From the IMG/VR virus record IMGVR_UViG_3300025601_000007: a stretch of 64,000 bases of DNA; one strand, 5' to 3'. Shown one piece after another: positions 33,243 to 56,436 of the stretch; positions within the stretch are counted from its first letter, which is position 1; each line of letters opens with the position of its first letter. The position numbers and the translations under genes were made by a program. The notes below the pieces were generated by a model. That model saw only the letters and a list, made by a program, of their open reading frames with translations. It searched no databases and was not told the DNA's origin. This stretch comes from a virus. Its lineage: Duplodnaviria; Caudoviricetes.

Positions 33243-34109
33243 TTACTCGTTTTTCTTTCGTAGGTACTCTGTCTTTTTTGTGTCGTAGATGCCTTTGATT
33301 CTTGAAAGTGAATAAGTAACCTCTCTAGACTCTAACTTTGTCTCATCAAGTATTGCATGTCTAATAGATTGTTTAGCATACTTTCCTTCTTCGTAAGCAT
33401 CTTGATTCTCCATCACTTTCAGAATTGCGTTTATCACCTTTACGTCATTTGGAGGAATGTTCTTTTTGTTGAGCTCATTTTCCATCATGCTGTGAACATA
33501 TTCGAAAAATTCAAATGTTTCATCCTGTTCCACATCAGCGTCCATTTCAAAACTTTCTTGCCTTTCGGTCTCGTCTTTATGGTCTTCCCAAGAGAGGTTT
33601 ACAGATTTTAAATCATCTAAATCTTTTTTTCTGTTTTGAAGGTAGTGTTTAGCTACTGTTCCATAGTAAGAAAAAGACTTGGCGCCATTATCAGGGTCAA
33701 AATTTGCAAATTTAAGATAAAGGTGGGTGACACACAGTTTCTGAAGTGTCTTCACGTCTACATCGTGACTAAATAGCTTGTAAGTGAAGATGATGTTCTC
33801 TACCAGTCGGTAAAGTGGCTTTTCTATATCATCTCTAAAGATTCGCTCTTTCCTTGCTTGGGTTTCTGGGGAGTACGCACCTGTGATTCTATACTCTAAT
33901 TCAGCTACATAACCGTCATCAATTGTTTCGTCTAATTCCCCACGCTCGATAAGATATTTATCGAGTTTTCTTTCAAGGTAGACTGTGTCAAGGTTTAAAA
34001 AAACTTTAACAGCGTGTTCAGTGCCTTGTGTCCAGTACACTTTGCTCTTCTTTTTCTCAATACCATTATCCGCCGTGGTGCCTGTTTCGGATGGACTAAT
34101 TGTTTCCAT
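33243..34109 (-). CDS. Phage late sigma factor (T4 gp55-like, sigma70 region 2)
   Basis: LYRLVENIIFTYK...HLYLKFANFDPDNGAKSFSYYGTVAKHYLQN resembles region 2.2-2.4 of gp55-type sigma factors. Confidence 0.7.
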   Translation of the reverse strand: METISPSETGTTADNGIEKKKSKVYWTQGTEHAVKVFLNLDTVYLERKLDKYLIERGELDETIDDGYVAELEYRITGAYSPETQARKERIFRDDIEKPLYRLVENIIFTYKLFSHDVDVKTLQKLCVTHLYLKFANFDPDNGAKSFSYYGTVAKHYLQNRKKDLDDLKSVNLSWEDHKDETERQESFEMDADVEQDETFEFFEYVHSMMENELNKKNIPPNDVKVINAILKVMENQDAYEEGKYAKQSIRHAILDETKLESREVTYSLSRIKGIYDTKKTEYLRKKNE

Positions 34110-35053
34110 TATGCTTCGATATATTCAATTTGTTCATCATCCTCTACGAAATAAGCATCAGTTGCTGTTTTGTGCCAGAACTCAGCTTCTTTCTGAGGCA
34201 TGCCACCTTTGTCTATAGGAATCTGGACCAGATTTTGAGGAAGTTTGCAACTAGTGTGGCTGTAAGAGTCTCTTCTTAGAATTCTCTGCTCGTAACCCAG
34301 CCTTGGAACGTTCATTATCAAAATGTCGTTATAAGCCATCCTCAAGAAAAATTCGTAAGGCGATACTAATTTAATGTTTGACTTCATTGGATATAGAACA
34401 TCGTCTCTTTCTTCAATCGCATCCTCTTCTTCGGTCATAGACGAGACTTTGTATAAAGCGCCAAGAGGGGATAGGCAGTTGAATTTCAGAAGAAGATTTT
34501 GGTCATATTTACCAGCTACCTCAGCCATTCCTTCTGCCCAACAAGCTTCGTTATAGTACCCTTGGAATGCTCCATGAACTACGTTTCGAATTACTGGAGT
34601 GAAAATTCCAACTTCTGGATTCTCCGATGCATATATCTTAGCTGTGTGTATCCAGGACGTGCTGTATACGTCTTCTGGCTCCGCGATTGAGAAAAACTCA
34701 TACCCGCTTTCGACTGCGCTTTGAAATCCTAAGTTAAAAGCCTCTGCAAAATTGGTTACATCCACTAAGTGAATTGTGTATTCCAATGGAAACACAGACG
34801 ATACTGGCTCTCTTATTAATTCACCTGGTTTTTTAGGGTCTTCTTTTGTCTGTTGGATAGTCGGTTTATCAATTACGCTTTGAAGCACATCTAGCTCCTT
34901 TTGGCTTAGGCCCCCGTGCATCAAAAGCACATCAACGGGCTCACGTTGCATTGCTAACGAGTAAATAAACTCATGAAGAGACTCCACCATAGGCAGTTCT
35001 CTGAAATACGCTGCAATTAGCGTGTTATGCTTCTTTTGCTCTGTTAAATTCAT
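34109..35053 (-). CDS. GT-A fold (GT2-like) glycosyltransferase
   Basis: NFAEAFNLG...FFSIAEPEDVY (degenerate DxD region), YEFFLRMAY; coupled to the sigma gene. Confidence 0.55.
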   Translation of the reverse strand: MNLTEQKKHNTLIAAYFRELPMVESLHEFIYSLAMQREPVDVLLMHGGLSQKELDVLQSVIDKPTIQQTKEDPKKPGELIREPVSSVFPLEYTIHLVDVTNFAEAFNLGFQSAVESGYEFFSIAEPEDVYSTSWIHTAKIYASENPEVGIFTPVIRNVVHGAFQGYYNEACWAEGMAEVAGKYDQNLLLKFNCLSPLGALYKVSSMTEEEDAIEERDDVLYPMKSNIKLVSPYEFFLRMAYNDILIMNVPRLGYEQRILRRDSYSHTSCKLPQNLVQIPIDKGGMPQKEAEFWHKTATDAYFVEDDEQIEYIEA

Positions 35054-36239
35054 CGATTCTTTCGTTTTTGTATTCTTCTATAATCTCAAGGACTCTTTTT
35101 TCTTCACCTTCTACGGTGTATTTATCAAGCGTTTTTTCATACTCAGCTTGAAGGCTAGTTTCCAAATCTATTTGTCCACTAACCCATTTATCCGCAGCTA
35201 TTCCCAAAAGCTCTGCTAACCCAAATAGATTCCCATTTTGAGACCAGAATCCGTTTTTATCAGTAGCATATTCTCGTCCTCCTGGTGCATCGAATCCAAT
35301 TACGTGGGTTCCGCAAGCCATAGCTTCAAGTGGAAGCGTACCGAATCCAGCAATGTCATCTGTATATAAAACAAATGCACAATCTCTCAGTCTTTCTGCG
35401 AATTCATTTCGGCTCATTCCGCTCATTTCCATGAATCGGAACCAACGCATATGAGGATTGGCAGCATAGAACATTTTAATGATTGTGTGCATTTTCATTT
35501 CTGACTCTGGGCCGCGACCTCTTTGATACCCAATCAAAGGCATTTTGTCGCTGAGCTTTTCAGGCTTATAAAAAATGTCACGATTGATTCCTTGCTTAAG
35601 AGATTTGATTTGAATCCCTGGCATAATAGCTCCTATATATTGACTAATGCAATCGGATACAGAAACTACATCATTGATTCCGAAATTTTGCCACATCTGA
35701 CCGTTCTTCATTCCAGCTAAAACATACAACCAGCTCTGGGCTAGAATGATTCTCTTACACGGTGCGTTTATTGTTCTCTCCATTACATTTGGAAAGCCCT
35801 CTGGGATAAACATAAAGTCCTCAGTAGCTAATTGAAGTGAGAAAGTTTGTTTCACCTTTCCGTCTGTGCAAATTATTTTTCCGTCTTTAGACTCTTTCAA
35901 TGGGAAGAACTCGATGCCTGAGATGTCAAAGTCAACCCAGTTTGGGTTGAATATGTCAAATACTTCCACTTCTTCTTTTGCTTGCTGAGAAGCTTGCATT
36001 GATGCCTCTCTGTTCATGCTTGGTTCATACCAAACCTTGACATTGAACCCTTGTTTTTTGTAAGCTGCGGCGACTCTTAAAAGAACTCCGATTCCGCCAG
36101 AAGGCTGATTCATTGCTGGACAATAAAAATGGATGTTGAACTCATTTTTCTCTAATTTAGAGATGAGTCCATCGATAACCTCTCCTTTTGTAGGTTCGAT
36201 TTTTTCCACCACTTTTTCTTGTTCTACTGCTTTTTCCAT
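35025..36239 (-). CDS. GT-B fold (GT4-like) glycosyltransferase
   Basis: PSGGIGVL near the N-terminus and GFGTLPLEAMACGTHVIGF (EX7E-type motif). Confidence 0.8.
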   Translation of the reverse strand: MEKAVEQEKVVEKIEPTKGEVIDGLISKLEKNEFNIHFYCPAMNQPSGGIGVLLRVAAAYKKQGFNVKVWYEPSMNREASMQASQQAKEEVEVFDIFNPNWVDFDISGIEFFPLKESKDGKIICTDGKVKQTFSLQLATEDFMFIPEGFPNVMERTINAPCKRIILAQSWLYVLAGMKNGQMWQNFGINDVVSVSDCISQYIGAIMPGIQIKSLKQGINRDIFYKPEKLSDKMPLIGYQRGRGPESEMKMHTIIKMFYAANPHMRWFRFMEMSGMSRNEFAERLRDCAFVLYTDDIAGFGTLPLEAMACGTHVIGFDAPGGREYATDKNGFWSQNGNLFGLAELLGIAADKWVSGQIDLETSLQAEYEKTLDKYTVEGEEKRVLEIIEEYKNERIDEFNRAKEA

Positions 36240-36370
36240 CGTTGTGATTAATTCGTTTAGAAAAATGTAGTTGAATAAGACCCTAAAATTAAAGGCACAA
36301 CTTAAAAAAAATGATTTTATGCCCTATTTATTTGCATGCGCTTTAAGTACAGCATCTTAAAAAATATTTC

Positions 36371-36901: not shown

Positions 36902-37008
36902 GAAAAGTCTATAAAAACAAAGTCGAAGAATCTTATGTTTTAGGTAGCTCAAATATTAGCAATGCGTATGCTAACGAGATTATTTCTATCGCAAAAGACC
37001 TGGACGAA

Positions 37009-37623: not shown

Positions 37624-37642
37624 TAGAAAATTACATCAATGC

Positions 37643-37679
37643 AAAAAAAAGAGAGCTCTTACGGGCTCTCTTTTTTTTT
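37643..37679. terminator. Bidirectional intrinsic terminator
   Basis: aaaaaaaagagagctc-ttac-gggctctcttttttttt between convergent genes. Confidence 0.85.
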
Positions 37680-37689
37680 GATACTGTGT

Positions 37690-37899
37690 CTATTGCTTGC
37701 CGTGTTTTGAAGTCATAGTTTTATGCAAGGACTCAATCTCTTTAGAGGCTGCTGTTTTAAACATAAACGGAAAAAAAGCGTGAACGATTGAAACCCCCCA
37801 AATCCACCCGCCAGCTGAGGCGGTCCCAAGTGCAAATAACAAATGTTTTAAGTAAGACATTTTGTTCTCGCTAGGGTGATGTGTGAAGGGATTTCTCAT
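37690..37899 (-). CDS. Small membrane-type protein (DUF6356-like)
   Basis: HP...MSYLKHLLFAL...IVHAFFPFMFKTAAS pattern. Confidence 0.55.
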   Translation of the reverse strand: MRNPFTHHPSENKMSYLKHLLFALGTASAGGWIWGVSIVHAFFPFMFKTAASKEIESLHKTMTSKHGKQ

Positions 37900-38732
37900 T
37901 ACTTTTTCCTCTTGTCGTTTTTCTCTTTCTCGTCATCAATCAACTGGTCCAGTGCGGTCATGTTAAGTGATTCTGACATTTGACCATCCACAGTAACGGT
38001 TGATGCAAATAAATCAGACTTCAAGCTGACACCTTTTTTCTTCGCGTACCCACGAGAGTAAAGCGCATTTGAAATCCCTCTTGAGGACTCTGTGTATGCT
38101 TGAGCGCTTGATGTGTCAACGAATGATGTATTCTGAATCCCAAGAGTGTCGGCGGCGTTTAAAGCTGAATCTTTGCTGGCTCCAATGAAAGAAATGGTCC
38201 AGTTGTCTTTTTTGTCAACTTCCTTGATAAGGTCTGCAACATCGCTTCCTTTCCATTCAGCAGAGGCGTTTTCATGTCCATCTGTTAAAATCATAATCAA
38301 AGCTTCGTTTTCCTCTTTCTTTAGCTCTTTCATCTGTCTTTCTTTTAAACTTGTGACAGTGATTCCAATTGCATCATGCAAAGCTGTTGAGCCTCTTGGG
38401 ACATATGTTTCTTCGTCTAAAAGCTCAATCTCATCGAGAGGCTTGTCTTTGTAAATGGTTATGATTTCATGGTCGAACAAGCAGAGAGTAATGAAGTACT
38501 TCTCCTCAGGAGAGTCTTCCTGCAAAGCTCTTAATGTCCCAATTTGCTCATTGAAATTGTCAATGGTTTCTTTTTTGATTGGATTCATCGAATAAGAACG
38601 GTCGACTACAAATGCGTAGTAAGTATTCCCTGGTGTTTTTTCAACAATAGTTTCCTCAACTATCGTCGTCGTCGTCGTTGTGACTTTCTTTGTGGCCTTA
38701 GCCTCTTTCGAGTCCTTTTTCTTTTTTGTCAT
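37899..38732 (-). CDS. von Willebrand factor A domain protein
   Basis: AFVVDRSYSM (MIDAS DxSxS), GSTALHDAIG, ILTDGHENAS. Start taken at ATG 38732. Confidence 0.85.
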   Translation of the reverse strand: MTKKKKDSKEAKATKKVTTTTTTIVEETIVEKTPGNTYYAFVVDRSYSMNPIKKETIDNFNEQIGTLRALQEDSPEEKYFITLCLFDHEIITIYKDKPLDEIELLDEETYVPRGSTALHDAIGITVTSLKERQMKELKKEENEALIMILTDGHENASAEWKGSDVADLIKEVDKKDNWTISFIGASKDSALNAADTLGIQNTSFVDTSSAQAYTESSRGISNALYSRGYAKKKGVSLKSDLFASTVTVDGQMSESLNMTALDQLIDDEKEKNDKRKK

Positions 38733-38763
38733 GTTGATGTTTTGCTGTGTTATTGTTCCAGTG

Positions 38764-38795
38764 CAAATATAAGTAGATAAAAAAATAATTCCCAA
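38764..38795 (-). promoter_or_regulatory. Bacteroidota-type housekeeping promoter upstream of the vWA gene
   Basis: Minus strand TTG-N21-TATATTTG matches the -33 TTG / -7 TAnnTTTG consensus. Confidence 0.55.
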
Positions 38796-38822
38796 GCTGG
38801 GAAGTATAATAATTTATTCACA

Positions 38823-39614
38823 TTATATTTTTTCTTTCAACACAATGTTTTTTAGAGCACCATTTTTGTTTAGAGCTGCAAGGGATTCGAATGAAATCGG
38901 TGTCTTGTCCCACTTGTTCCAAGGTCTTTCAATTTTTATCAATTCTTTACCCATTGGCTTTGAGTGGATGGCTTCTGGGGTGTCATCTATCAAGATGTCA
39001 CACAGGTCCCACTTCTCTTCATTGCTGTCGACAAAATGGATGCTTTGCACTCGGCAGTGGTGAGTGCTTAGGAAGGCGAATGTTGCTGGGATTGCTCCTT
39101 GTTTACATGTTGAAACCAAAATGGTTTTGTAGAGCCCTTTGTCCCGACCGAAAGCTTGGATTTTATTGACAGTCTCCATTGCATCTTTGTACTGGTCTGC
39201 CCTGCCGAATATCTGAAATGGGTAGTCTTCGTAGATAAATTTGTCTAGCACCTCCATAGAGGTTAAGCGAATTGGTTCATCGTCACCTTTGTTGTCATCA
39301 AACGAGATAACTTTTAACTTCTTTGGTTCGAATCGATAGTGATTTGTTAAATCGTCCGTGTCCACTGGGAGAGAAAGGAGTTCGTTTTCTTTTTCTTCAA
39401 TCATTGCAGCTAGTGCGTCCATTTCTTCTTCTGAGAATTCCTCTTTCAGCTGAAAAGTGCTTTCATCTATATTTCCTGATGCAACATCTGTGTGGGTTGG
39501 AATATTTCCATCTACTTCGCTTGCGTTGTGAATGAATTTCTTGCGGTATATGAAATCGAACTTAGAAATGAAGTCTCGAATTGTCCCGTCTATGTTTATT
39601 GCTACTGTTTTCAT
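38823..39614 (-). CDS. 5'(3')-deoxyribonucleotidase-like HAD protein with an Asp-to-Asn change in motif I
   Basis: VAINIDGTIRDF (NxD instead of DxD), ILIDDTP motif IV and the C-terminal RPWNK. Confidence 0.65.
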   Translation of the reverse strand: MKTVAINIDGTIRDFISKFDFIYRKKFIHNASEVDGNIPTHTDVASGNIDESTFQLKEEFSEEEMDALAAMIEEKENELLSLPVDTDDLTNHYRFEPKKLKVISFDDNKGDDEPIRLTSMEVLDKFIYEDYPFQIFGRADQYKDAMETVNKIQAFGRDKGLYKTILVSTCKQGAIPATFAFLSTHHCRVQSIHFVDSNEEKWDLCDILIDDTPEAIHSKPMGKELIKIERPWNKWDKTPISFESLAALNKNGALKNIVLKEKI

Positions 39615-39649
39615 TTGTTTAAAATTAATAGTCCTATTGTCCGATGACA

Positions 39650-40072
39650 CTATATCTCATTCTTAGATTTCATCTTTTCGAACTCTTTTAAAGAAGCGAT
39701 GTAGTCACTTTTTTCGTAATTAGTATCACAAAGAACAAGTAAGACGCTTTTGTCTTCTTTATATTTTTCTTCTGCCCACAGCCCTTTAGGGATTAGTAAT
39801 GCTGAATTTGGTTTATTCAATAAACACTTTTTCCATGTGGTTCCGTCAAAACAATTTACTTCTACACGTCCTGAAATACAAATTAATAATTGATTTGTAT
39901 TATAATGAGCATGCTTTCCTCTTGTTGTGTTGATTGGTACATTGTAAACGTAAAATGTTCTTTTAATTAAAAAAACACTATCAAGTCCTGACTCTATAGG
40001 AACTAAATTGCCAAGCTCGTCTTTAAAGGTTTTTAGCTGTATCTCTAAAACATCTTCAATTGTTGATTTCAT
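39650..40072 (-). CDS. FdtA/QdtA-family sugar 3,4-ketoisomerase (cupin)
   Basis: DELGNLVPIE...IKRTFYVYNVP...RGKHAH...LLVLCDTNYEKSDY. Confidence 0.9.
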   Translation of the reverse strand: MKSTIEDVLEIQLKTFKDELGNLVPIESGLDSVFLIKRTFYVYNVPINTTRGKHAHYNTNQLLICISGRVEVNCFDGTTWKKCLLNKPNSALLIPKGLWAEEKYKEDKSVLLVLCDTNYEKSDYIASLKEFEKMKSKNEI

Positions 40073-41746: not shown

Positions 41747-41759
41747 TACTGTTTTTTAT

Positions 41760-43041: not shown

Positions 43042-43044
43042 AAA

Positions 43045-43740: not shown

Positions 43741-43744
43741 ATAA

Positions 43745-48253: not shown

Positions 48254-48267
48254 TTTAACAGTTGTTG

Positions 48268-48906: not shown

Positions 48907-48981
48907 TGTTGTATTATTTTTTTATTGTAAGTCTATTTCTGTATTTATAATTTTTTGCGCTCTCGTATGTAAAACACTTTA

Positions 48982-50142: not shown

Positions 50143-50306
50143 TGTTCTAGAATTTTTAATGTTGTTTTCGTTAGATGATGTTGTTTATCCATGTCTTCTT
50201 TTGTCATTCTAAAAAATGCTTGGATAGAATTTTCTAAAGGAGAAGATTTGGCGTCTGATGTAATGATGTTCGACTTATTTTTCCTTTTTACTACTTTCGT
50301 TGTCAT
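50139..50306 (-). CDS. Small hypothetical protein (55 aa)
   Basis: ATG 50306 overlaps the upstream TAA, and its stop overlaps the DegT start. Confidence 0.55.
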   Translation of the reverse strand: MTTKVVKRKNKSNIITSDAKSSPLENSIQAFFRMTKEDMDKQHHLTKTTLKILEQ

Positions 50307-51253
50307 TATACGTCGGCTGTTTGGCATTCTAATTCTAAAATAAAGTTAGACAACCATCCCCAGGGAGCCAAATATTTTTCCCACAATTGTCTATTATATG
50401 TTTGTAATTTTGTAATTACGAATCTATTTCGTTCCATCCAAGCATCGATATGCTCAGCAATGTTTGGTAGCTCGCTTTCTGGTATAATGATGGCGCAGTC
50501 CTTGTAATTGATTTGGTCTTCGAATGGTAATATTTGGTCGGAATCTATTATTAAAGGAATTCGGCCCATCATCATTGTTTCGTAGAGTCTATAGGAGAAG
50601 TTTCCTGCGCCTCTTGCACAGAGAATAAACACGTTGTTTCGAAGATTGTCTATGAATTCTCTTCGGGCCTGACCCTTGGGGAGCTCTGGTGCCCAGAATC
50701 CTTTTCTCAGAATGAAATCTGTTTCTAGAATGGTTTGTTTTCTGAGTTTTTGTATAGCTTTTCTTCTCACGGGGATAAACGCTTGGCCACAGAATCCAAC
50801 AGACAACTGTTTATTTGGGTTATCGATTATCTTCGATTGGTCGTAAAAATCTCCTGTGAACGCTGGAAATGCATATTCATTCTCTTTTCGGTCTCTGGTG
50901 TTGAATGATGTTCGAAACACATAACCTTGTTCTGGCCTAACATTTATTGGGTTTTCATCGTCATCGTTGTAAATCACAATTATCTTCTTCCCTGCGTCGT
51001 TTGCTTCTTTGATTAACTCTTTGGTCTGAAGGGTGTCTTCATATTTATAAGGAAGGACTGCATAGTCACAATCCTTCAAAGATGCGTATTGAATGATGGA
51101 GTCCCCGCTGGACATTACTCTTGAGAATCTGTCGTTGTGAAGTGGCTCCTGGGGCCAGTTTGATGTATCCTCAAAAGGCATACAGAAGATGGTCTCGGTC
51201 ATCCCTCCATCTTTTCCTTTGAAAGCTTTTTTGTTGTAGTATATTTTGGTCAT
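50306..51253 (-). CDS. Exostosin-family (GT47) glycosyltransferase
   Basis: FILCARGAGNFSYRLYETMMMGRIPLIIDSDQILPFEDQINY, the exostosin C-terminal signature. Confidence 0.85.
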   Translation of the reverse strand: MTKIYYNKKAFKGKDGGMTETIFCMPFEDTSNWPQEPLHNDRFSRVMSSGDSIIQYASLKDCDYAVLPYKYEDTLQTKELIKEANDAGKKIIVIYNDDDENPINVRPEQGYVFRTSFNTRDRKENEYAFPAFTGDFYDQSKIIDNPNKQLSVGFCGQAFIPVRRKAIQKLRKQTILETDFILRKGFWAPELPKGQARREFIDNLRNNVFILCARGAGNFSYRLYETMMMGRIPLIIDSDQILPFEDQINYKDCAIIIPESELPNIAEHIDAWMERNRFVITKLQTYNRQLWEKYLAPWGWLSNFILELECQTADV

Positions 51254-52101
51254 ACCAGTTTTCGTATTAACTCCTTAGCTCCTCCAGCTGACTGGAAGTG
51301 AAGAGTGTTAAAAACGACATTCTCTCCAGTAATTATGTTTTTAATCACGGGCATACCGTCAATCATTTTGAATTTTTTAACAAAAATCTTTCTACCTAAC
51401 CCTATGTCTTGTTCAACCATTTCGTACTCAACTCGCTCTTGGTTCTCTGCCGCGTTGATGTTGTGGTCAAAAGTGGAGCCTTCAAAAACGGATGTCATGC
51501 ATTCGACTTCGTTTTCTTGAGCATACAAATACAATAGAGTCATGTCGCAAATTCCGCCTGGCTGTTTATTTTTGATGTGATGTGCTTGCTTGCGTTTGAG
51601 ACGTTTTCGAGCAGATTTTTCTACATACTGAGCCTTCATAAACACCCAAAGCTTCTCTAACTCTGTAACCGTCATGTAGGACGTGTGCGCGGAGCAACTC
51701 CAGCGATATTCTGGCTGGTGAGTTGGCACGCTCATCCCTATTGAGTTGTGACGAATTCTGGCAGTAATATTCTCGTTTAGGTTTTTGAAAATCAAAACAT
51801 CTGAATCCAAATAAACTGCTGCTATGTGCCCTTTTTCTTTTAAAAGGTTCAGCATCATTTTCCACCTTACAATGCAAATGTGTTCAACCCAGGCTGAGTT
51901 GGTTGACATGTGCGTGTATGTGTCTGTGAATTCCTGAACTCCTTCTAAGTAATCTTCCGATTGGACCACTTCAATTCCTTCGTACTTAACTTTTTGGTCC
52001 GTAATCAAATAGACTGTGTCATGAAATTTCCTCGCTTGCTTCAAGACAGGCTCCAAATACCAGGCTGCTCCAAAATGGATAAAAACTATTGGTAGGTTCA
52101 T
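51250..52101 (-). CDS. GT-A fold glycosyltransferase
   Basis: PIVFIHFG, ICIVRW, YLDSDV (DxD), CDMTLL, TFDHNIN. Confidence 0.65.
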   Translation of the reverse strand: MNLPIVFIHFGAAWYLEPVLKQARKFHDTVYLITDQKVKYEGIEVVQSEDYLEGVQEFTDTYTHMSTNSAWVEHICIVRWKMMLNLLKEKGHIAAVYLDSDVLIFKNLNENITARIRHNSIGMSVPTHQPEYRWSCSAHTSYMTVTELEKLWVFMKAQYVEKSARKRLKRKQAHHIKNKQPGGICDMTLLYLYAQENEVECMTSVFEGSTFDHNINAAENQERVEYEMVEQDIGLGRKIFVKKFKMIDGMPVIKNIITGENVVFNTLHFQSAGGAKELIRKLV

Positions 52102-52898
52102 AATGATAACTCTATTGATTTATGAAAATTCTCTGGGCTCAAGTAGTTGTCGTAAACATCTTTCATCGCAACACGCATGGTATTTATGTCGCTCAAAGAG
52201 AACTCTTCTAATACTTTTGAAATGGTCTTTATCTTTTTCTCTGGGATAGTAACCGAGATTAGGGCCCAATCAATGTCTTCGTGTAAAGGTGGTCTGTATC
52301 CATCTGCTATGATAACAGGTATTGTGCCCATAGCCATCGCCTCAAACATTCTAACCGAGCTTATCCCTGTTCCTCTCGGACAAAGAGCAAACTCACAGCT
52401 AGCCAATGCGTTTGTGTAATTTTTTGAGAACTCCTCTCCCAAGTTTACATCTAGACCCCAGTGGACTCCACTGTCAGTACATTGGTCAGGAAACAACTTT
52501 ACTATTCCCTTCCTAGTGTGATGGGTTGTGGTCGAACCTAGGAATCCAAACAGTTTCGTGCGACCGCAAGGCTGCTCAGAGACATTAACAGGGAAATGCG
52601 GAATAGATATTACATTATTGCTGTCAGTGGCATGTGGGCTACACATGACGCTGTTGTTGTCTACTTGCAGTTGATTCACAAGAATATGCTGACACACAAG
52701 TATTTTTTTCTCCTTCGGGTCCAAAGAGTCTATGACGCTCTGCGTTGCTGGGGCACCAATGTTATTTATCATGTGAGCCAATGGCAGCATGTGAAGAACC
52801 CAGTCATCACTAATAGTGGATTCCTTCAGCTTTTGAAACATTGTTTCTTCTGTCGGAATGTATGGGTCTTTGCCATAATTGTGTTCTACTACTTTCAT
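52098..52898 (-). CDS. Exostosin-family (GT47) glycosyltransferase
   Basis: FALCPRGTGISSVRMFEAMAMGTIPVIIADGYRPP. Confidence 0.85.
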   Translation of the reverse strand: MKVVEHNYGKDPYIPTEETMFQKLKESTISDDWVLHMLPLAHMINNIGAPATQSVIDSLDPKEKKILVCQHILVNQLQVDNNSVMCSPHATDSNNVISIPHFPVNVSEQPCGRTKLFGFLGSTTTHHTRKGIVKLFPDQCTDSGVHWGLDVNLGEEFSKNYTNALASCEFALCPRGTGISSVRMFEAMAMGTIPVIIADGYRPPLHEDIDWALISVTIPEKKIKTISKVLEEFSLSDINTMRVAMKDVYDNYLSPENFHKSIELSL

Positions 52899-53496
52899 AG
52901 TTGAATAAATGTAATCTCTGTTCGTTTAGGGTTTGTTTTCAAAATGACGTAGTCATTTTCCTTCATCATCTCAATCATTTTTTCGGTATCTATTGAGATT
53001 TATCATCCAAACAAAAATGGTGAAACTCTACGCATATTTGCTTAATTCCTACACACTCTTGAAGACACTCATATTCAGAACCCTCTATATCCATTTTGAT
53101 GACGGAAATATTGCTATAACGTTCTCTAAGTTCTTTGAATGAAACACATTTAGCCGTATAAGTTTCTCCCCCAACGCTAGCGTGATTTGGAAGAGCGCTC
53201 TCACTAACCCAGTCGGGGTTTGTATTTTTATGCATCACTATCTCTTTCACTCCGTGTGGGGCCACAGCCTTTTCTAGTAGTTCGAAGTTTTTTGGATTTA
53301 ACTCATTAACATGATTAATGCTTTTTTCAGTTGGGTCCACTCCGACTATTTGTATTTTTCGATGTTCTTGGAGCTCTAAGGGGAAAGTAATGTCTTCTCC
53401 TAGGCCAGCATCGATTATAAAATCGCCGTCTTTAATGTGGTCTAAATCTACGGTCCAACCGCCGTAATCGGTTCCAAAGTGTCTTATATTAGGCAT
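52895..53496 (-). pseudogene. FkbM-like methyltransferase, apparently frameshifted near its C-terminus; ~200 aa if joined
   Basis: GTDYGGW, DAGLGEDITF, KMDIEGSE, EFHH. The ORF stops at 52990, but the -1 frame continues (ISIDTEKMIEMMKENDYVILK...EITFIQL*) to a TGA overlapping the next ATG at 52898. Confidence 0.6.
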
Positions 53497-54136
53497 ATGT
53501 TTTCATTTGTTGCTTTACATACTCAAACATCTCTGCTTTCTTCTCTACTCCAACAGTGAAGTTTGCGTGATGCGCCATTATGTTTCTTGGTAGGATAAAG
53601 TTTTTTTCTCCATTCCAAACTTTCGCTCCGTTAACTGAGGCGATTGTAAAATATTTATCCTGGGGAAGCAATTTATACCGCACTCTACCCTTGTGGACGT
53701 TCATGGCTACTTGGTCGTTTGCAAAGTCAGGAGTAACCTTGTGGATGTGTTTTAAGAATTTCTTCATAACCTTTGTTCCTCTTCCGATGAAAAGTCCAGC
53801 GCATATTGTTCCGTTATCAGATTGAGCAACCATATCAGTCTTGTCATCTATATACGTCAGTATGTCATCGTGGAAATTATCAAAGAACTGAATGTCACAA
53901 TCGGCAAAAACAAATGGTTGGTCTGAATTTTCTTCTGCGGCCCGAATCAAAATATCGACTTTATCAACCATTGTGTCGTTGAAACCTTTTGTTCCGAAAT
54001 CTCCGTTTCCTTTTTGACCCACAACTGTAACGTCTAACTCAAAGTCTTTATCCAAACCCAATCGATTGAATGACTCCAGAAAATAATTTTCGTAGAGCTC
54101 TCTGTGGGACTCGCTATAGAATGTGTAGATTTTCAT
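53489..54136 (-). CDS. Nucleotide-diphospho-sugar transferase (GT-A, GT77-like)
   Basis: MVDKV...FVFADCDIQFF (DxD), ICAGLF, NDQVAMN, HHANFTVG. Confidence 0.8.
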   Translation of the reverse strand: MKIYTFYSESHRELYENYFLESFNRLGLDKDFELDVTVVGQKGNGDFGTKGFNDTMVDKVDILIRAAEENSDQPFVFADCDIQFFDNFHDDILTYIDDKTDMVAQSDNGTICAGLFIGRGTKVMKKFLKHIHKVTPDFANDQVAMNVHKGRVRYKLLPQDKYFTIASVNGAKVWNGEKNFILPRNIMAHHANFTVGVEKKAEMFEYVKQQMKTYA

Positions 54137-54579
54137 CTGAGCTGTCTTTTTATGTTTGATTTAAAATCTTCCGAAACGGTTTTAAGCTCACTTCTCATTA
54201 AGTCTAGCTCAGACGAGTTTGGGTCTCGCTTGATTAATTCGATATTGACGATGTCGTGTTTGCTTATTCTGTTTCTGCATATCATTCTAATTCCAATCAC
54301 GGGAATAAAAAATCTAGCGTTTGGGTCCGCTATGGTGTCGACGATTAAATCCATCATAGTATCTGGGAAAACAGGCATAATTTCTAAGTTGTACTCTTTG
54401 CTTTTCAGCCTTACCGCTGTTTCTAAAATGCTATGATTAATTTGGTCGAACCGTCTTAGCTGTACATAATCGAACTCCCCTGAGTTGTTTTTTACTCCTT
54501 TAATCCAAACTTGGAAATCTGCAAATGTCTTTACAGATTTCAACCGAGTTAGATTTACGATTGAATTACTTACTTTCAT
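54133..54579 (-). CDS. Hypothetical protein (148 aa)
   Basis: Coupled ORF in the operon; no recognisable motif. Confidence 0.6.
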   Translation of the reverse strand: MKVSNSIVNLTRLKSVKTFADFQVWIKGVKNNSGEFDYVQLRRFDQINHSILETAVRLKSKEYNLEIMPVFPDTMMDLIVDTIADPNARFFIPVIGIRMICRNRISKHDIVNIELIKRDPNSSELDLMRSELKTVSEDFKSNIKRQLR

Positions 54580-54581
54580 TA

Positions 54582-55274
54582 TTATGTTTGTTTTAGAGCG
54601 AACCTTTTATTCTTTCTATCTTCAAAAGTTGTCTTATCAACATGAATAGGACCTTCGTTTTTCTGGTAAAGACCGTCCATTTTCCCAAATCCCCACGCCC
54701 AATGCTGGTGCTCAATAATGACCATTGGTGAGTAGTGAACTTTATTTAGAGCCCTGGATACTTCCATGAATTCGTTATCACAATAAAGCGATACGTAAGA
54801 TGGGTGGTATATGTACCCGAACCTATTATAGTATTTTTTTCCGAGTATGCAAAGTGTGTTCAGTTTATCTCCCTGGTGTCCGTCGTTAAAATGGAGCACG
54901 CCATCAAAGTCTGGGAAATGTTTTTTGAAACCTTTTCGAATATGCATGTCATATCCTTGAATCTTTGGCATCATATCATCCGACACCAGCACCACGATAT
55001 TCCAAGGTTCTTCGTGCTCTTGGATGTCTCTGTTGCAAGCGAATATTTTCCCTTTGGATTCTCCCACAACTGCGTTTAGATTCTTGTACTCCGATAATCT
55101 CTCTAACACCTCAGGGGTGTTTAATATTTCATCGTCGTGGTCAATCGAAATAAGGAATGTGAAATTTTTTTTGTCCACCATTAGACCGTAGTACTGGTCG
55201 AGTTTCTCGAAAAGTTTGCCTTTGCGCTCTCGCGCAGGAAACTTAAATAAGATATGTGCGTCTTTCCAACTCAT
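54582..55274 (-). CDS. GT-A fold glycosyltransferase
   Basis: FKFPARER, KIFACNRD, VLVSDDMMP (DxD-like), LYCDNEF. Confidence 0.7.
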   Translation of the reverse strand: MSWKDAHILFKFPARERKGKLFEKLDQYYGLMVDKKNFTFLISIDHDDEILNTPEVLERLSEYKNLNAVVGESKGKIFACNRDIQEHEEPWNIVVLVSDDMMPKIQGYDMHIRKGFKKHFPDFDGVLHFNDGHQGDKLNTLCILGKKYYNRFGYIYHPSYVSLYCDNEFMEVSRALNKVHYSPMVIIEHQHWAWGFGKMDGLYQKNEGPIHVDKTTFEDRKNKRFALKQT

Positions 55275-56083
55275 TCTACAGCTGCGTCTTTTTTACCTGT
55301 GAGCAATCGAAGTATGCCTATATCTTTATGAATCTCTTCCGTTTTTGAAATATCGAAAAAATGAAGCTTGTGACGTTCTCCTTTCATTAGCTGAATATTA
55401 GTGAGCATTTTTGTGAGAAAGGAAGTTTTTTCGTTTTGGTCTGGCTTCTGTGTGAACAAAACGCTTTTTTTTGGACACAGAGATTTATGTCGATGATAAT
55501 TGCCGAACATTTGAAACCCTTCCTGAAGGTCCTCTCGTGTTGTAAACGGAATTGCTTTGATTATTTTGGCGATTTCCTTTTTACGGTAGATACTTCCAGC
55601 GATGGAAAAAGGTTCATTGAAATCAACATAATGGACTGTCCAGTCATATTTAAGAAGCTTCCCCGACTTGCCTTCTGGCTTAAAAATGTTTTCAGCTCCT
55701 AAAGATGAGTTTTTCTTAATGTTCTCACCAAGTCTTGTGTGAATAGATAAGACCTCTTCATCTGAAAAAGTTTTGTCTAAGTCTGGAATAACAAAAGCGC
55801 GATAGAACACATCTTCTGTTGTGCAAAGACAAACATAGTCTTGGTCTGTTCGCTCGTTGATGTCTTTCAGAAAAGCATCTTTGTAACTGTCTACTTTTAC
55901 AAAGTCTAGTTTTTCGCTTTTGTATTCACGAAATATTAGCTCGTACATCAAGGAATAATCCGATGTAGAAGCTTTGTATATTATTGTAGTGGAGTAGTCT
56001 CCAATTACGTTCTCCTTTAAGCTCTGGAGAAAGAGGCGTGTATTAAACGCGGAGTCCTCTGAGAGGGCAATAAATTTCAACAT
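55271..56083 (-). CDS. Glycosyltransferase-like protein (GT-A, possibly degenerate)
   Basis: DYVCLCTTEDVFYR and W...DFNEPFSIAGSIY pattern; sits among glycosyltransferases. Confidence 0.45.
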   Translation of the reverse strand: MLKFIALSEDSAFNTRLFLQSLKENVIGDYSTTIIYKASTSDYSLMYELIFREYKSEKLDFVKVDSYKDAFLKDINERTDQDYVCLCTTEDVFYRAFVIPDLDKTFSDEEVLSIHTRLGENIKKNSSLGAENIFKPEGKSGKLLKYDWTVHYVDFNEPFSIAGSIYRKKEIAKIIKAIPFTTREDLQEGFQMFGNYHRHKSLCPKKSVLFTQKPDQNEKTSFLTKMLTNIQLMKGERHKLHFFDISKTEEIHKDIGILRLLTGKKDAAVE

Positions 56084-56115
56084 TGTTTTCTGCTTGCCTG
56101 GCTGGCAATAAAAAC

Positions 56116-56436
56116 TTAGGAAATGTGCTCGTCGATTTTGTCACTTAACGCTTTTACTGTCTGCATGCCTATAAGAGAAGCTACGCTCTCTCCTTCTTTG
56201 ATTAAGAACATCTGAGGAATACTTCTAACTTTGTACTCTTTTGCGAGCTCAGAGTTTTCGTCCACATTAATTTTAACAATGCGAATGCTATCATATTTAT
56301 CAGCAACTTCATCAAGTACTGGACTAAGGGCTCTACAAGGCCCACACCAGTCTGCATAAAAATCTACAAGAACGAGGGTGTTTTCTTGGATTGTTTGTTT
56401 GAATTCTGCGGTATCTGCATTTGCTACTTCTGCCAT
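56116..56436 (-). CDS. trxA: Thioredoxin
   Basis: VDFYADWCGPCRAL active site; SIPQ cis-Pro loop. Confidence 0.95.
   Translation of the reverse strand: MAEVANADTAEFKQTIQENTLVLVDFYADWCGPCRALSPVLDEVADKYDSIRIVKINVDENSELAKEYKVRSIPQMFLIKEGESVASLIGMQTVKALSDKIDEHIS

What the first reader, a model, noticed from the sequence alone, without database searches (positions are those of the whole stretch)
34109..56436. Phage-encoded ~22-kb glycan factory: nonulosonate pathway plus eukaryote-type GT29 and exostosin (GT47) transferases, linked to late genes
SEEN: one mostly co-oriented locus with neuA, neuB, a DapA/NAL-family aldolase, a GT29-like gene next to them, two exostosin-type genes, at least six further GT-A/GT-B enzymes, FdtA + DegT, an SDR, three methyltransferases and a 2OG dioxygenase. 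A TATTTA late-type box precedes the head gene trxA, and two GTs are translationally coupled into the late sigma factor and baseplate-hub genes. KNOWN: NeuB/NeuA make CMP-nonulosonates; GT29 and GT47 are best known from eukaryotic Golgi glycosylation; FdtA plus a DegT-family enzyme make dTDP-3-amino sugars. INFERRED: the phage builds its own sialylated or otherwise decorated glycan, most plausibly on the virion. Host-surface remodelling for superinfection exclusion is an alternative.
Basis: partly seen in the sequence, partly recalled or inferred. Interest (0 to 1): 0.85.

Follow-up and report, generated by a model that had tools for sequence, protein, structure and literature searches.

The report
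Phage-encoded sialic-acid-like glycan assembly island
An uncultured salt-lake jumbo phage carries about 22 kb of genes that make two activated rare sugars, one of them sialic-acid-like, and at least nine soluble sugar-transferring enzymes, including an unannotated sialyltransferase-like family that works with a dioxygenase; what the glycan is attached to remains unknown.

Summary
Nearly every gene call was confirmed by HMMs or folds:
- a NeuB fusion, a CMP-ulosonate synthetase, an SDR, a small HAD phosphatase, a DHDPS/NAL-like aldolase and a PhyH dioxygenase;
- three methyltransferases, and FdtA with a QdtB/DesV-type C3-aminotransferase;
- two GT47-type genes and six further GTs.

46552-47280 has no Pfam hit. 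Its AF2 model (pLDDT 94.8) matches only GT29, then GT42, sialyltransferases. Its family profile aligns to a canonical Pfam-GT29 protein through motifs L/S/III/VS, with H166-x4-E171 invariant.

New here:
- This GT29-like family is always found with a CMP-transferase and a NeuB- or KdsA-type synthase.
- In many relatives it is fused to the same PhyH dioxygenase that is a separate gene here.
- The 632-aa NeuB-TIM-barrel fusion is a bacterial gene (66% identity to a Bacteroidota MAG).
- No locus protein has a membrane segment.

TATTTA is a real strand-specific upstream motif (16/70 genes against 2.7 expected) shared with structural genes. The GT4 and GT2-like genes are coupled to a phage sigma factor in a separate unit that lacks the box. 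The "baseplate hub" was not confirmed. "Eukaryote-type" overstates the case. The virion as target is plausible but untested. Another first-stage note in this scan (e1-5363713) covers the same stretch.

The parts
56437..56500 (-). Promoter region of the main operon. The TATTTA box (TAAATA on the + strand at 56468-56473) lies 32-37 nt upstream of the trxA ATG.
   Evidence: Sequence. Motif enrichment 16/70 genes against 2.7 expected; commonest upstream hexamer and strand-specific.
56116..56436 (-). Thioredoxin, first gene of the operon.
   Evidence: PF00085, E 1.3e-30.
55271..56083 (-). 270-aa protein, unassigned.
   Evidence: No Pfam or PHROG hit.
54582..55274 (-). Glycosyltransferase (phage family).
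   Evidence: phrog_14945 'glycosyltransferase', E 1.9e-22.
54133..54579 (-). 148-aa protein, unassigned.
   Evidence: No hits.
53489..54136 (-). GT-A nucleotide-diphospho-sugar transferase.
   Evidence: PF03407, 30.5 bits, above the cut-off of 22. Homologues lie next to GT47, FkbM and GT29-like genes in L012.
52990..53496 (-). FkbM-family methyltransferase.
   Evidence: PF05050, E 3e-8. Conserved in L004 and L012.
52098..52898 (-). GT47 (exostosin)-type transferase; soluble, no anchor.
   Evidence: PF03016, 81.3 bits (cut-off 33.4), profile positions 151-292 of 293. PDB matches: EXT2 E 6e-8, EXT1, EXTL3, and a weak match to chlorovirus A075L. No TM segment.
51250..52101 (-). Retaining-type GT-A fold (GT6/GT8-like) with invariant D99-x-D101.
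   Evidence: 83 homologues with no Pfam hit. AF2 pLDDT 96.3. Foldseek matches ABO transferases, glycogenin, LARGE1 and XXYLT1, all prob 1.00.
50306..51253 (-). Second GT47-type transferase.
   Evidence: PF03016, 47.6 bits, above the cut-off.
48982..50142 (-). PLP sugar C3-aminotransferase (QdtB/DesV type).
   Evidence: PF01041, E 4e-80. Among the best PDB matches are QdtB (262 bits) and 2oga, which I take to be DesV; WbpE is lower.
48601..48906 (-). Small cap-less HAD phosphatase with a DxDxT motif.
   Evidence: phrog_1238, E 4.5e-22. Lies directly next to the GT29-like gene in L004-L007.
48254..48600 (-). Non-coding gap. It holds a decayed canonical GT29-like remnant (motifs L, S, III, then a stop, then VS) and two TATTATACT boxes.
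   Evidence: The frame-2 translation aligns to the L014 GT29 protein. The VS piece scores z 5.0 (0/500 shuffles); the N-terminal piece z 2.3. TATTATAC occurs 3 times in the window, all on the minus strand in short intergenic gaps.
47273..48253 (-). DHDPS/NAL-superfamily class I aldolase-like enzyme; role unknown.
   Evidence: PF00701, E 1.8e-5. Weak NCBIfam hits to dapA and N-acetylneuraminate lyase. PDB DHDPS E 1e-5. Conserved near GT29-like genes in L004, L005, L007 and L012.
46552..47280 (-). Divergent GT29-superfamily (sialyltransferase-fold) transferase; proposed CMP-ulosonate transferase.
45636..46559 (-). SDR epimerase/dehydratase-family enzyme, partner of the NeuB fusion.
   Evidence: PF01370, E 4e-25. 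It sits in the same position upstream of the NeuB-TIM gene in bacterium L015 (45% identity) and in L014 (56%).
43745..45643 (-). Nonulosonate synthase (NeuB+SAF) fused to a xylose-isomerase-like TIM barrel.
   Evidence: PF03102 234 bits, PF01261 56 bits. NeuB_NnaB 299 bits, below the 399.65 cut-off. More than 100 full-length 632-aa homologues at 55-72% identity, including Bacteroidota, Campylobacter concisus and Sulfurospirillum.
43045..43740 (-). PhyH-type Fe(II)/2OG dioxygenase, functional partner of the GT29-like enzyme.
   Evidence: PF05721. It is 41-54% identical to the C-terminal domains of natural GT29-like::PhyH fusion proteins.
42388..43041 (-). CMP-ulosonate (NulO/Kdo-type) cytidylyltransferase.
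   Evidence: PF02348, 92.6 bits. PseF and KdsB models score below their cut-offs.
41123..42395 (-). Two class I SAM methyltransferases (41760-42395 and 41123-41746).
   Evidence: Several Pfam methyltransferase families. The pair is conserved, with 58-60% identity, in L014.
40056..41123 (-). GT-B-type glycosyltransferase.
   Evidence: No direct Pfam hit. It is 57-58% identical to homologues in L002/L003 and L014. The L014 homologue carries a faint Glycos_transf_1 hit and a 354-aa gene at the syntenic position of the P0004 contig a weak one.
39650..40072 (-). FdtA-type dTDP-sugar 3,4-ketoisomerase.
   Evidence: PF05523, 126.6 bits.
38823..39650 (-). 275-aa protein with a weak HAD-like N-terminus; role unknown.
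   Evidence: phrog_1238, E 0.0064. A 34%-identical homologue lies in L014.
37899..38795 (-). VWA-domain protein with a Lys/Thr-rich N-terminus, preceded by a TATTATACT box.
   Evidence: PF00092, 24.9 bits. Sequence.
37690..37899 (-). DUF6356 small protein, last gene of the operon.
   Evidence: PF19883, E 1.8e-15.
37624..37689 (.). Bidirectional terminator-like hairpin (A9, a GC-rich stem, then T8) that ends the main operon.
   Evidence: Read directly from the sequence. The consensus scan did not list it.
35025..36239 (-). GT4-type GT-B glycosyltransferase, first gene of the second transcription unit.
   Evidence: PF00534, 32.3 bits, above the cut-off. A 31%-identical homologue lies in L014.
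34109..35053 (-). GT2-like GT-A enzyme. It overlaps the GT4 gene by 29 nt and the sigma gene by 1 nt.
   Evidence: Atlas features 0.98 to viral GT2 clusters. Coordinates.
33243..34109 (-). Phage RNA-polymerase sigma-factor-family protein.
   Evidence: Atlas features 0.98, structural TM 0.64 to viral sigma-factor clusters. No Pfam or PHROG hit.

Best explanation
**What it is.** This is a self-contained, cytoplasmic glycan-assembly island of a jumbo myovirus-like phage. It has two transcription units.

**Main operon (56436 down to 37690, minus strand).** It starts at a TATTTA box of the kind that precedes the structural genes and ends at a bidirectional terminator. It supplies two donor sugars.

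1. *A CMP-activated nonulosonate of unknown identity.*
   - The SDR and the NeuB-SAF-TIM-barrel fusion make the keto-acid sugar from PEP, probably from a sugar or sugar phosphate that the TIM domain isomerises.
   - The small HAD removes a phosphate.
   - The cytidylyltransferase activates the sugar.
   - The GT29-like enzyme transfers it.
   - Its partner, the PhyH dioxygenase, hydroxylates the residue or its acceptor. This would resemble Kdo transferase plus the Kdo hydroxylase KdoO.
   - The methyltransferases tailor the product.
2. *A dTDP-3-amino-3,6-dideoxyhexose.* FdtA and a QdtB/DesV-type aminotransferase make it from host dTDP-4-keto-6-deoxyglucose.

**Chain assembly.** At least eight further soluble GTs build the chain: two GT47-type, a GT6/GT8-like GT-A, a Nucleotid_trans, a PHROG GT and a GT-B here, plus a GT4 and a GT2-like enzyme in the second unit.

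**Acceptor.** Most likely phage virion proteins, glycosylated in the cytoplasm before or during assembly.

**Shown and inferred.**
- Shown: the gene families, the folds, the co-occurrence across loci, the natural fusion and the promoter motif.
- Inferred: the sugar identities, the order of steps, what the dioxygenase does and the acceptor.

**Odds.**
- Core claim (phage-made CMP-ulosonate transferred by the GT29-like enzyme): about 0.8.
- Virion as the acceptor: about 0.45. The confidence given for this explanation is that of the whole statement, acceptor included.
For: **Families and folds.**

**GT29-like gene.**
- The AF2 model has pLDDT 94.8.
- hhalign aligns motifs L/S/III/VS to a Pfam-GT29 protein, E 2.7e-5.
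- H166 and E171 are invariant in 78 sequences.

**Guilt by association.**
- In most related loci long enough to show neighbours, the family sits with a CTP_transf_3 gene.
- It also sits with a NeuB-type or KdsA-type (DAHP_synth_1) synthase, and usually with the HAD, the PhyH and the DHDPS-like gene.

**Natural fusion.**
- Eight of ten long family members are GT29-like::PhyH fusions.
- The window's PhyH is 41-54% identical to their C-terminal domains.
- The AFDB top hit is such a fusion, TM 0.84.

**Bacterial module.** SDR, NeuB-TIM and CMP-transferase lie together in a Bacteroidota polysaccharide locus.

**Cytoplasmic action.** None of the 30 locus proteins has a TM-like segment. No flippase, polymerase, initiating transferase or exporter is encoded.

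**Late-type expression.** TATTTA precedes 16/70 genes (2.7 expected), mostly 20-26 nt before the ATG. These include the baseplate and large-protein genes, and trxA.

**Precedents.**
- Mycobacteriophage capsid and tail-tube glycosylation (Freeman 2023, as cited in PMC12619734).
- Giant-virus autonomous glycosylation (PMC9614988).
Against: - No expression or glycan data exist. All 20 runs that hold the locus are listed as DNA (kind guessed, "DNA?") and none is on record as RNA.
- Bacterial O-antigen GTs are also soluble. The lack of membrane proteins therefore does not exclude assembly on a host lipid carrier with export by host machinery.
- The NeuB-TIM/SDR/CMP-transferase module comes from bacterial surface-polysaccharide loci that carry a Wzt-type ABC transporter. 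That fits host-surface mimicry or remodelling.
- The TATTTA box of trxA lies further from the ATG (-37) than is usual for this motif (-20 to -26).
- The GT4 and GT2-like genes lie in a unit without the box.
- NeuB and the cytidylyltransferase score below every equivalog cut-off, so the sugar is unidentified.
- No NeuC/PseG-type step that releases a free hexose was found.
Confidence: 0.45

Rival explanations
1. The enzymes are the same, but the product goes to the host envelope. The phage glycan, or its nonulosonate cap, is assembled on a host lipid-linked or protein acceptor and exported by host machinery. This alters LPS, capsule or S-layer glycans during infection. The effect could be superinfection exclusion, prevention of progeny re-adsorption to lysed cells, or receptor masking.
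For: - Marine T4-like pelagimyophages and cyanomyophages carry hypervariable islands with tail-fibre genes and many LPS-type GTs. These are interpreted as host O-chain modification (PMC7029224).
- Cyanophage S-SCSM2R carries KdsA, KdsB and 13 GTs, interpreted as cell-wall modification (PMC12801897).
- The NeuB-TIM fusion, SDR and cytidylyltransferase have close bacterial counterparts (66%, 45% and 38% identity) inside a polysaccharide locus with Wzt_C/ABC_tran and Poly_export genes.
Against: - About 22 kb of locus holds no flippase, polymerase, ligase, initiating phosphoglycosyltransferase or any membrane protein.
- The operon carries the promoter box shared with structural genes, which is late for an exclusion function.
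- Known phage serotype converters are membrane enzymes of temperate phages (general knowledge, not tested here).
Confidence: 0.35
2. The sugars end up on phage DNA as a hypermodification of hydroxymethylated pyrimidines that protects against restriction or CRISPR. Some of the GTs would act on DNA.
For: - Phage GT clusters have been shown to attach mono- to trisaccharides to 5hmC, including ulosonic (Kdo-like) and uronic sugars (bioRxiv 10.1101/2023.12.21.572611).
- The locus contains a 2OG dioxygenase and methyltransferases.
Against: - Searches of the 76-kb record for thymidylate-synthase/hydroxymethylase and C5-DNA-methylase families found nothing. The TET/JBP search also found nothing, but its control rang in no genome, so it is uninformative. 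The record is only about a quarter of the genome.
- The dioxygenase is PhyH-type. In relatives it is fused to the GT29-like transferase, not to a DNA enzyme.
- The methyltransferases are small class I enzymes, not PF00145.
- The gene content (FdtA, aminotransferase, GT47, GT6/8-like) resembles polysaccharide or glycoprotein assembly.
Confidence: 0.06
3. The island is a recently captured bacterial polysaccharide cassette that is decaying or neutral cargo, or a chimeric assembly, with no coordinated function in the phage.
For: - The locus holds a decayed GT29-type remnant in the 48254-48600 gap.
- The NeuB fusion is very similar to bacterial genes.
- GC content dips to 0.34-0.35 across 40-48 kb, against about 0.38-0.41 elsewhere.
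Against: - Twenty-five tightly packed, mostly overlapping intact ORFs lie on one strand.
- The same sub-modules recur in at least ten other viral or phage-like contigs in varying order. One of them carries a 32%-identical gp6-like baseplate gene.
- The locus is held with 95-100% of its sampled words in 20 salt-lake runs from 2017-2018.
- Phage-type promoter boxes flank it.
Confidence: 0.04

Closest known systems
Eukaryotic and viral GT29 sialyltransferases (ST6GalNAc2, ST8Sia3, ST3Gal1; Pfam PF00777) and bacterial GT42 (CstII/CstI)
   Same: - The same Rossmann-like sialyltransferase fold.
- The same order of L, S, III and VS-like motifs, with an invariant His-x4-Glu.
- A genomic partnership with a CMP-keto-acid-sugar synthetase.
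   Different: - 10-16% identity, and no direct Pfam hit.
- About 240 aa, with no membrane anchor or stem.
- The synthase partner is KdsA-type as often as NeuB-type, so the donor may be an octulosonate in some relatives.
- Frequently fused to a PhyH dioxygenase.
Kdo transferase plus the Fe(II)/2OG Kdo 3-hydroxylase KdoO of Burkholderia and Yersinia LPS (from my own knowledge)
   Same: A keto-acid-sugar transferase working with a 2OG dioxygenase that modifies the transferred residue. This is the logic proposed here for the GT29-like/PhyH pair.
   Different: The protein families differ (GT30 and Kdo_hydroxy, against GT29-like and PhyH). The substrate and site of hydroxylation here are unknown, and nothing was tested.
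Glycan and LPS-type gene islands of marine myophages (pelagimyophage 'host recognition cluster', PMC7029224; cyanophage S-SCSM2R with KdsA/KdsB and 13 GTs, PMC12801897)
   Same: A large lytic aquatic myovirus with a multi-GT island near baseplate and fibre genes. Relatives of this island carry KdsA- and KdsB-type genes.
   Different: - This island adds a NeuB-type nonulosonate route, a GT29-superfamily transferase, GT47-type enzymes and a 3-amino-sugar route.
- A GenBank phage collection of 50,697 records holds no homologue of the GT29-like gene and only three NeuB matches.
Autonomous virion glycosylation: mycobacteriophage capsid and tail-tube glycans (Freeman 2023, cited in PMC12619734); chlorovirus and mimivirus glycans (PMC9614988), including the GT47-like chlorovirus A075L
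   Same: Virus-encoded soluble GTs and sugar-nucleotide pathways acting in the cytoplasm on virion proteins. The window's GT47 gene gives a weak sequence match to chlorovirus A075L (E 0.04).
   Different: Glycosylation of this phage's virion has not been shown. The mycobacteriophage systems have one or two GTs and no donor-sugar pathway.
Bacterial SDR, NeuB-TIM-barrel fusion and CMP-transferase module in ABC-transporter-type polysaccharide loci (Bacteroidota MAG, L015)
   Same: The three genes lie in the same order with the same overlap, at 66%, 45% and 38% identity.
   Different: - In the bacterium the adjacent transferase is MptE/WaaZ-like, not the GT29-like family.
- The locus there has export genes.
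- As far as I could find, the module's product is uncharacterised.

Membership tests
GT29 sialyltransferases (CAZy GT29 / Pfam PF00777), for 46552-47280 | Sequence match to the family model above threshold | tested here: not met
   There is no Pfam hit at E<=0.01 for the protein itself. Six of 78 relatives hit PF00777, best E 7.3e-6. A profile of PDB sequences gave no sialyltransferase hit.
GT29 sialyltransferases (CAZy GT29 / Pfam PF00777), for 46552-47280 | Sialyltransferase (GT-A variant) fold | tested here: met
GT29 sialyltransferases (CAZy GT29 / Pfam PF00777), for 46552-47280 | Sialylmotifs L, S, III and VS in order, with the catalytic His of VS (H-x4-E) | tested here: met
   hhalign of the 78-sequence profile against a Pfam-GT29 protein (L014:2968-3606) gives prob 74.5%, E 2.7e-5, and aligns all four motif regions. 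R35, H58, G125, H166, H179, D185 and C189 are invariant and E171 is nearly invariant. The motif-L/S disulfide cysteines are not conserved.
GT29 sialyltransferases (CAZy GT29 / Pfam PF00777), for 46552-47280 | Type II membrane topology (anchor and stem), acting in a secretory compartment | tested here: not met
   There is no hydrophobic segment, and the protein starts directly at motif L.
GT29 sialyltransferases (CAZy GT29 / Pfam PF00777), for 46552-47280 | Uses a CMP-activated nonulosonate as donor | not testable with these tools
   Only genomic association supports this: a CTP_transf_3 gene and a NeuB/KdsA-type synthase lie nearby in most related loci long enough to show neighbours.
GT47 exostosin family (Pfam PF03016), for 52098-52898 and 50306-51253 | Family model hit above the gathering score | tested here: met
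   81.3 and 47.6 bits against a cut-off of 33.4. Only the C-terminal half of the profile is matched (positions 151-292 and 159-287 of 293). PDB matches: EXT2 6e-8, EXT1 7e-6.
GT47 exostosin family (Pfam PF03016), for 52098-52898 and 50306-51253 | GT-B fold with a Golgi-type membrane anchor | tested here: inconclusive
   There is no anchor.
NeuB-family nonulosonate synthases, for 43745-45643 | NeuB and SAF domains; equivalog-level match to a synthase of known specificity | tested here: inconclusive
   PF03102 scores 234 bits and SAF is present. TIGR03569 NeuB_NnaB scores 299 bits against a cut-off of 399.65, and PseI 211 bits against 340. It is a family member of undefined specificity. The extra C-terminal PF01261 TIM barrel is shared by more than 100 bacterial and metagenomic homologues.
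CMP-Kdo/NulO cytidylyltransferases (PF02348), for 42388-43041 | Family model hit; equivalog assignment | tested here: inconclusive
   PF02348 scores 92.6 bits, above the cut-off. PseF scores 97.6 bits against a cut-off of 205.7, and the KdsB models are far below theirs.
dTDP-3-amino-3,6-dideoxyhexose pathway (FdtA/QdtA with FdtB/QdtB) | A 3,4-ketoisomerase and a C3-aminotransferase are present; RmlA/RmlB and an N-acyltransferase complete the pathway | tested here: inconclusive
   FdtA scores 126.6 bits. Among the aminotransferase's best PDB matches are QdtB and 2oga, which I take to be DesV. The locus has no RmlA, no RmlB equivalog (the SDR scores 49.6 bits against a cut-off of 365) and no acyltransferase. 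The host would have to supply the precursor.
Phage virion-glycosylation systems (mycobacteriophage type) | Glycans demonstrated on capsid or tail proteins; GT genes in the structural operon | not testable with these tools
   Only indirect evidence exists: a shared TATTTA box, proximity to baseplate genes and soluble GTs.

The most novel reading that the evidence does not exclude
The 46552-47280 family may be a previously unrecognised viral/prokaryotic branch of the sialyltransferase (GT29) superfamily. It would act as a cytoplasmic CMP-ulosonate transferase hard-wired to a PhyH-type dioxygenase, as separate genes here and fused in relatives. With it, this lytic jumbo phage would cap a wholly phage-made glycan on its own virion with a hydroxylated and/or methylated nonulosonate. 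That would be the first sialic-acid-like decoration of a bacteriophage particle, and a possible window on the prokaryotic roots of eukaryotic sialyltransferases.
Probability: 0.3. Interest if true: 0.85.

Novelty: new variant of a known kind. Interest (0 to 1): 0.62.

Why it matters
- Glycan gene islands in large aquatic phages are known, but none has been worked out functionally. This one is unusually complete: two donor-sugar routes and at least nine transferases.
- It yields concrete, testable units:
  1. a roughly 240-aa soluble sialyltransferase-fold enzyme with no existing annotation;
  2. its fused or adjacent dioxygenase partner;
  3. a widespread bacterial SDR/NeuB-TIM/CMP-transferase module whose sugar product appears to be unknown.
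- If the glycan sits on the virion, autonomous virion glycosylation would extend from giant viruses and mycobacteriophages to jumbo phages, with a sialic-acid-like cap.
- If it goes to the host envelope, this would be a lytic-phage route to surface remodelling.
- Either way, the enzymes are candidates for glyco-engineering with rare keto-acid sugars.

Tried and rejected
- **Searches on P0001 that found nothing.**
  - Direct Pfam, NCBIfam and PHROG scans.
  - phmmer and profile searches of PDB sequences.
  - The word-indexed homologue search gave only four hits.
- **GenBank phages.** Nucleotide and protein searches found no GT29-like homologue. NeuB matched in only three records, one of them probably bacterial.
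- **Related-locus scans.**
  - With the NeuB fusion it found no viral locus.
Distribution of the family in cellular genomes therefore remains untested.
- **N,N-dimethylamino-sugar idea for the two class I methyltransferases (TylM1/DesVI type).** Not supported. Their best PDB matches are generic or peptide methyltransferases.
- **'Baseplate hub' for 31114-32412.** No family and no usable Atlas model.
- **DHDPS-like aldolase as the ulosonate synthase in loci without NeuB.** Rejected as a general rule, because those loci carry a KdsA-type synthase as well.
- **Consensus scans.** The sigma-70 promoter and terminator scan gave numbers no higher than shuffles.
- **RNA runs.** None found.
- **Complex prediction.** Not used, because there is no defined acceptor candidate.

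Full report
**Setting.**
- The window is bases 4155-68154 of a 76-kb IMG/VR viral record that CheckV rates about 24% complete.
- It is a tailed phage. 22113-23978 matches gp6-type baseplate-wedge families (phrog_219, E 1.2e-22). 33243-34109 belongs to viral sigma-factor clusters.
- Most large ORFs have no Pfam or PHROG hit, so the lineage is very divergent.
- The locus DNA is held with 95-100% of its sampled words in 20 salt-lake metagenome runs from 2017-2018. None of these runs is on record as RNA.
- Genes lack Shine-Dalgarno sequences and have A-rich leaders.
- The closest named homologue of the NeuB fusion is from a Bacteroidota MAG. A Bacteroidota host is plausible but unproven.

**Checking the observation.** Thirty ORFs between 33243 and 56436 were scanned.

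*Confirmed directly:*
- NeuB+SAF fused to a xylose-isomerase-like TIM barrel (43745-45643)
- a CMP-keto-acid-sugar cytidylyltransferase (42388-43041)
- an SDR (45636-46559)
- a DHDPS/NAL-superfamily protein (47273-48253; weak but consistent hits)
- a PhyH dioxygenase (43045-43740)
- FdtA (39650-40072)
- a DegT aminotransferase (48982-50142), among whose best solved relatives are C3-aminotransferases: QdtB, 2oga (which I take to be DesV) and, lower, WbpE
- two class I methyltransferases and one FkbM methyltransferase
- two GT47 hits above the gathering score. Their solved relatives are EXT2 and EXT1, with a weak match to chlorovirus A075L.
- a GT4, a Nucleotid_trans GT-A and a PHROG glycosyltransferase
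- thioredoxin

*Supported indirectly:*
- 34109-35053 is GT2-like (Atlas).
- 40056-41123 is GT-B: its 58%-identical L014 homologue carries a faint Glycos_transf_1 hit, and a 354-aa gene at the syntenic position of the P0004 contig carries a weak one.
- 51250-52101 had no family assignment, so I modelled it with 53 homologues (pLDDT 96.3). It has a retaining GT-A fold like the ABO transferases, glycogenin and LARGE1, with an invariant DxD.
- 48601-48906 is a minimal HAD phosphatase (phrog_1238, E 4.5e-22).

*Not assigned:* 55271-56083, 54133-54579 and 50139-50327.

*Count:* GT29-like + 2 GT47-type + 6 others = 9 supported GTs.

**The GT29 question.**
- The protein (P0001) has no Pfam, NCBIfam, PHROG or PDB-sequence hit.
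- An exhaustive HMMER search found 157 relatives among 1.84 billion representatives.
- Those relatives show that the true start is the upstream ATG at 47280, which includes the conserved N-terminal motif. The database's own gene call (P0002) begins at residue 40 of the 242-aa reading.
- Six of 78 aligned relatives hit PF00777.
- The AF2 model is confident (pLDDT 94.8). The top Foldseek hits are ST6GalNAc2, ST8Sia3 and ST3Gal1, followed by the GT42 enzymes CstII and CstI.
- The family profile aligns to a canonical Pfam-GT29 protein from a related contig (L014) with E 2.7e-5. Motif L, motif S, motif III and the VS His-x4-Glu are in register. H166 is invariant and E171 nearly so.
- I conclude that it is a divergent member of the GT29 superfamily with a sialyltransferase fold. 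It has no membrane anchor.

**What the neighbours say.**
- I looked at related loci from IMG/VR and metagenomes. In most that are long enough to show neighbours, the GT29-like gene lies with a CTP_transf_3 gene and a keto-acid-sugar synthase.
- The synthase is NeuB-type in L010/L011, the P0004 contig and the window. It is KdsA-type (DAHP_synth_1) in L004 and the P0007 contig.
- The small HAD lies directly downstream in four loci. The DHDPS-like gene, the PhyH, the methyltransferase pair, the 355-aa GT-B and FdtA recur in shuffled orders. So does the trio of Nucleotid_trans, GT47 and FkbM.
- L014 carries most of the window's module: the NeuB-TIM fusion at 72% identity, the SDR at 56% and the methyltransferases at 58-60%. 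Its transferase is a canonical Pfam-GT29 gene instead.
- The record that holds L004 also has a 32%-identical gp6-like baseplate gene. These are therefore related myoviruses, not stray bacterial DNA.

**The fusion.**
- The best AlphaFold-DB match (TM 0.84, 27% identity) is a 430-aa protein named as a phytanoyl-CoA dioxygenase. Its first 235 residues are the GT29-like domain.
- Eight of ten long family members are such GT29-like::PhyH fusions.
- The window's separate PhyH gene is 41-54% identical to their C-terminal domains.
- This is strong evidence that the transferase and the dioxygenase act on the same substrate. I propose hydroxylation of the transferred keto-acid sugar or of its acceptor. 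This parallels Kdo transferase and KdoO, but that parallel is an analogy from my own knowledge and was not tested.

**Origin of the synthase.**
- The 632-aa NeuB-SAF-TIM architecture is shared at 55-72% identity by more than 100 proteins. Sources include Bacteroidota, Arcobacteraceae, Campylobacter concisus, Sulfurospirillum and Desulforhopalus.
- In a Bacteroidota MAG it sits between the same SDR and a cytidylyltransferase. The surrounding polysaccharide locus has Wzt_C, ABC_tran and Poly_export genes.
- The phage therefore captured a bacterial three-gene module.
- NeuB scores below the equivalog cut-offs for both Neu5Ac synthase and PseI. No NeuC/PseG-type step is present. The sugar is thus an unidentified nonulosonate.
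- By analogy with the Kdo and Kdn-9-P routes, the TIM domain may isomerise a sugar phosphate and the HAD may dephosphorylate the product. This is inference.

**Transcription.**
- TATTTA occurs only about as often as base composition predicts across the window as a whole. It is nevertheless the commonest hexamer 11-45 nt upstream of genes: 13/70 genes, against 4 for its reverse complement and 4 or fewer for non-overlapping same-composition permutations.
- Within 60 nt upstream it precedes 16/70 genes against 2.7 expected, mostly 20-26 nt before the ATG. These include the baseplate and large-protein genes.
- trxA has one at -37. No other gene of the 56436-37690 block has one.
- That block is 25 tightly packed minus-strand ORFs ending at an A9-hairpin-T8 bidirectional terminator at 37624-37689.
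- A second motif, TATTATACT, occurs three times in the window. All three are on the minus strand in short gaps, before 47273-48253 and before the VWA gene. It may be an internal promoter.
- The GT4, GT2-like and sigma genes overlap (29 nt and 1 nt) and form a separate unit without a TATTTA box. If this sigma factor reads TATTTA, these two GTs would be made with it, before the late genes.

**Where the glycan goes.**
- No locus protein has a membrane-spanning segment. No flippase, polymerase, ligase or initiating transferase is present.
- Together with the promoter class, this favours cytoplasmic glycosylation of virion proteins. Precedents are the mycobacteriophages and the giant viruses (PMC12619734 citing Freeman 2023; PMC9614988).
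- It does not exclude assembly on a host lipid carrier. Marine myophage GT islands are usually read as host-surface remodelling (PMC7029224, PMC12801897), and the synthase module comes from bacterial surface-polysaccharide loci.
- DNA hypermodification with ulosonic sugars exists in phages (bioRxiv 10.1101/2023.12.21.572611). The 76-kb record yielded no thymidylate-synthase-type or C5-methylase gene; the TET/JBP search was uninformative because its control rang in no genome. The dioxygenase is tied to the transferase, not to DNA enzymes.
- My odds: virion 0.45, host envelope 0.35, DNA 0.06, the remainder other or none.

**Novelty.**
- Phage and giant-virus glycan islands are known.
- Eukaryotic GT29 has been proposed to descend from a proteobacterial enzyme (PMC10225777), so 'eukaryote-type' should not be read as eukaryotic origin.
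- I found no report of a phage nonulosonate pathway with a GT29-superfamily transferase, or of the GT29-like::PhyH pairing. These negatives rest on searches of an open-access library only.
- A collection of 50,697 GenBank phage records has no homologue of the transferase.
- I rate it a new variant of a known kind.

Noticed in passing
window 48254-48600 (minus strand): The 347-bp 'gap' translates in one frame to a roughly 110-aa remnant of a more canonical GT29 gene. It reads VAIVGSS (motif L), STVG...LYGF (motif S) and HY (motif III), then a TAA stop, then H-x4-E (VS). About 100 residues between motifs L and S are missing. The VS part aligns to the L014 GT29 protein with z 5.0 (0/500 shuffles); the N-terminal part only with z 2.3.
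   Followed up: partly
window-wide; e.g. 22000-22005, 56468-56473: cTATTTAt is a strand-specific motif 20-26 nt upstream of 16 of 70 genes (2.7 expected). It precedes most large putative structural genes, so it is a candidate phage late-type promoter. The co-encoded sigma factor (33243-34109) is a candidate reader.
   Followed up: partly
window 38804, 48271, 48304 (minus strand): TATTATACT occurs three times, always on the minus strand and always in short intergenic gaps, before the VWA gene and before the DHDPS-like gene. It may be a second promoter class inside the operon.
   Followed up: no
window 43745-45643; L015:9067-12585: The SDR, NeuB-SAF-TIM-barrel fusion and CMP-transferase form a module that is widespread in bacteria (Bacteroidota, Campylobacterota, Desulfobacterota, Leptospirales). 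As far as I could find, its sugar product is uncharacterised. In the Bacteroidota MAG the adjacent transferase is MptE/WaaZ-like.
   Followed up: partly
window 37899-38795: The VWA-domain protein at the distal end of the glycan operon has a Lys-rich N-terminus with a run of six threonines. It could be an acceptor or a virion-associated adhesin. This is pure speculation.
   Followed up: no
window 46552-47280: The public protein collection holds this gene only as a 203-aa product (P0002) beginning at residue 40 of the 242-aa reading. The homologue alignment shows that the conserved N-terminal motif (IICGS...VRNN) lies upstream of that start, so the database call is truncated.
   Followed up: yes
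window 58698-60557: This 619-aa protein combines an N-terminal P-loop region with a C-terminal PhoH-like domain. The N-terminal region matches families annotated as terminase large subunit, DnaC-like helicase loader and primase. It is probably not the packaging terminase.
   Followed up: no
L008 (IMGVR GVMAG-M-3300005613-29, 5.3 kb): A contig binned as a giant-virus MAG carries the same GT29-like, PhyH and GT-B trio plus a GT47 gene. Either the bin is contaminated by phage DNA, or the module also circulates in giant viruses.
   Followed up: no
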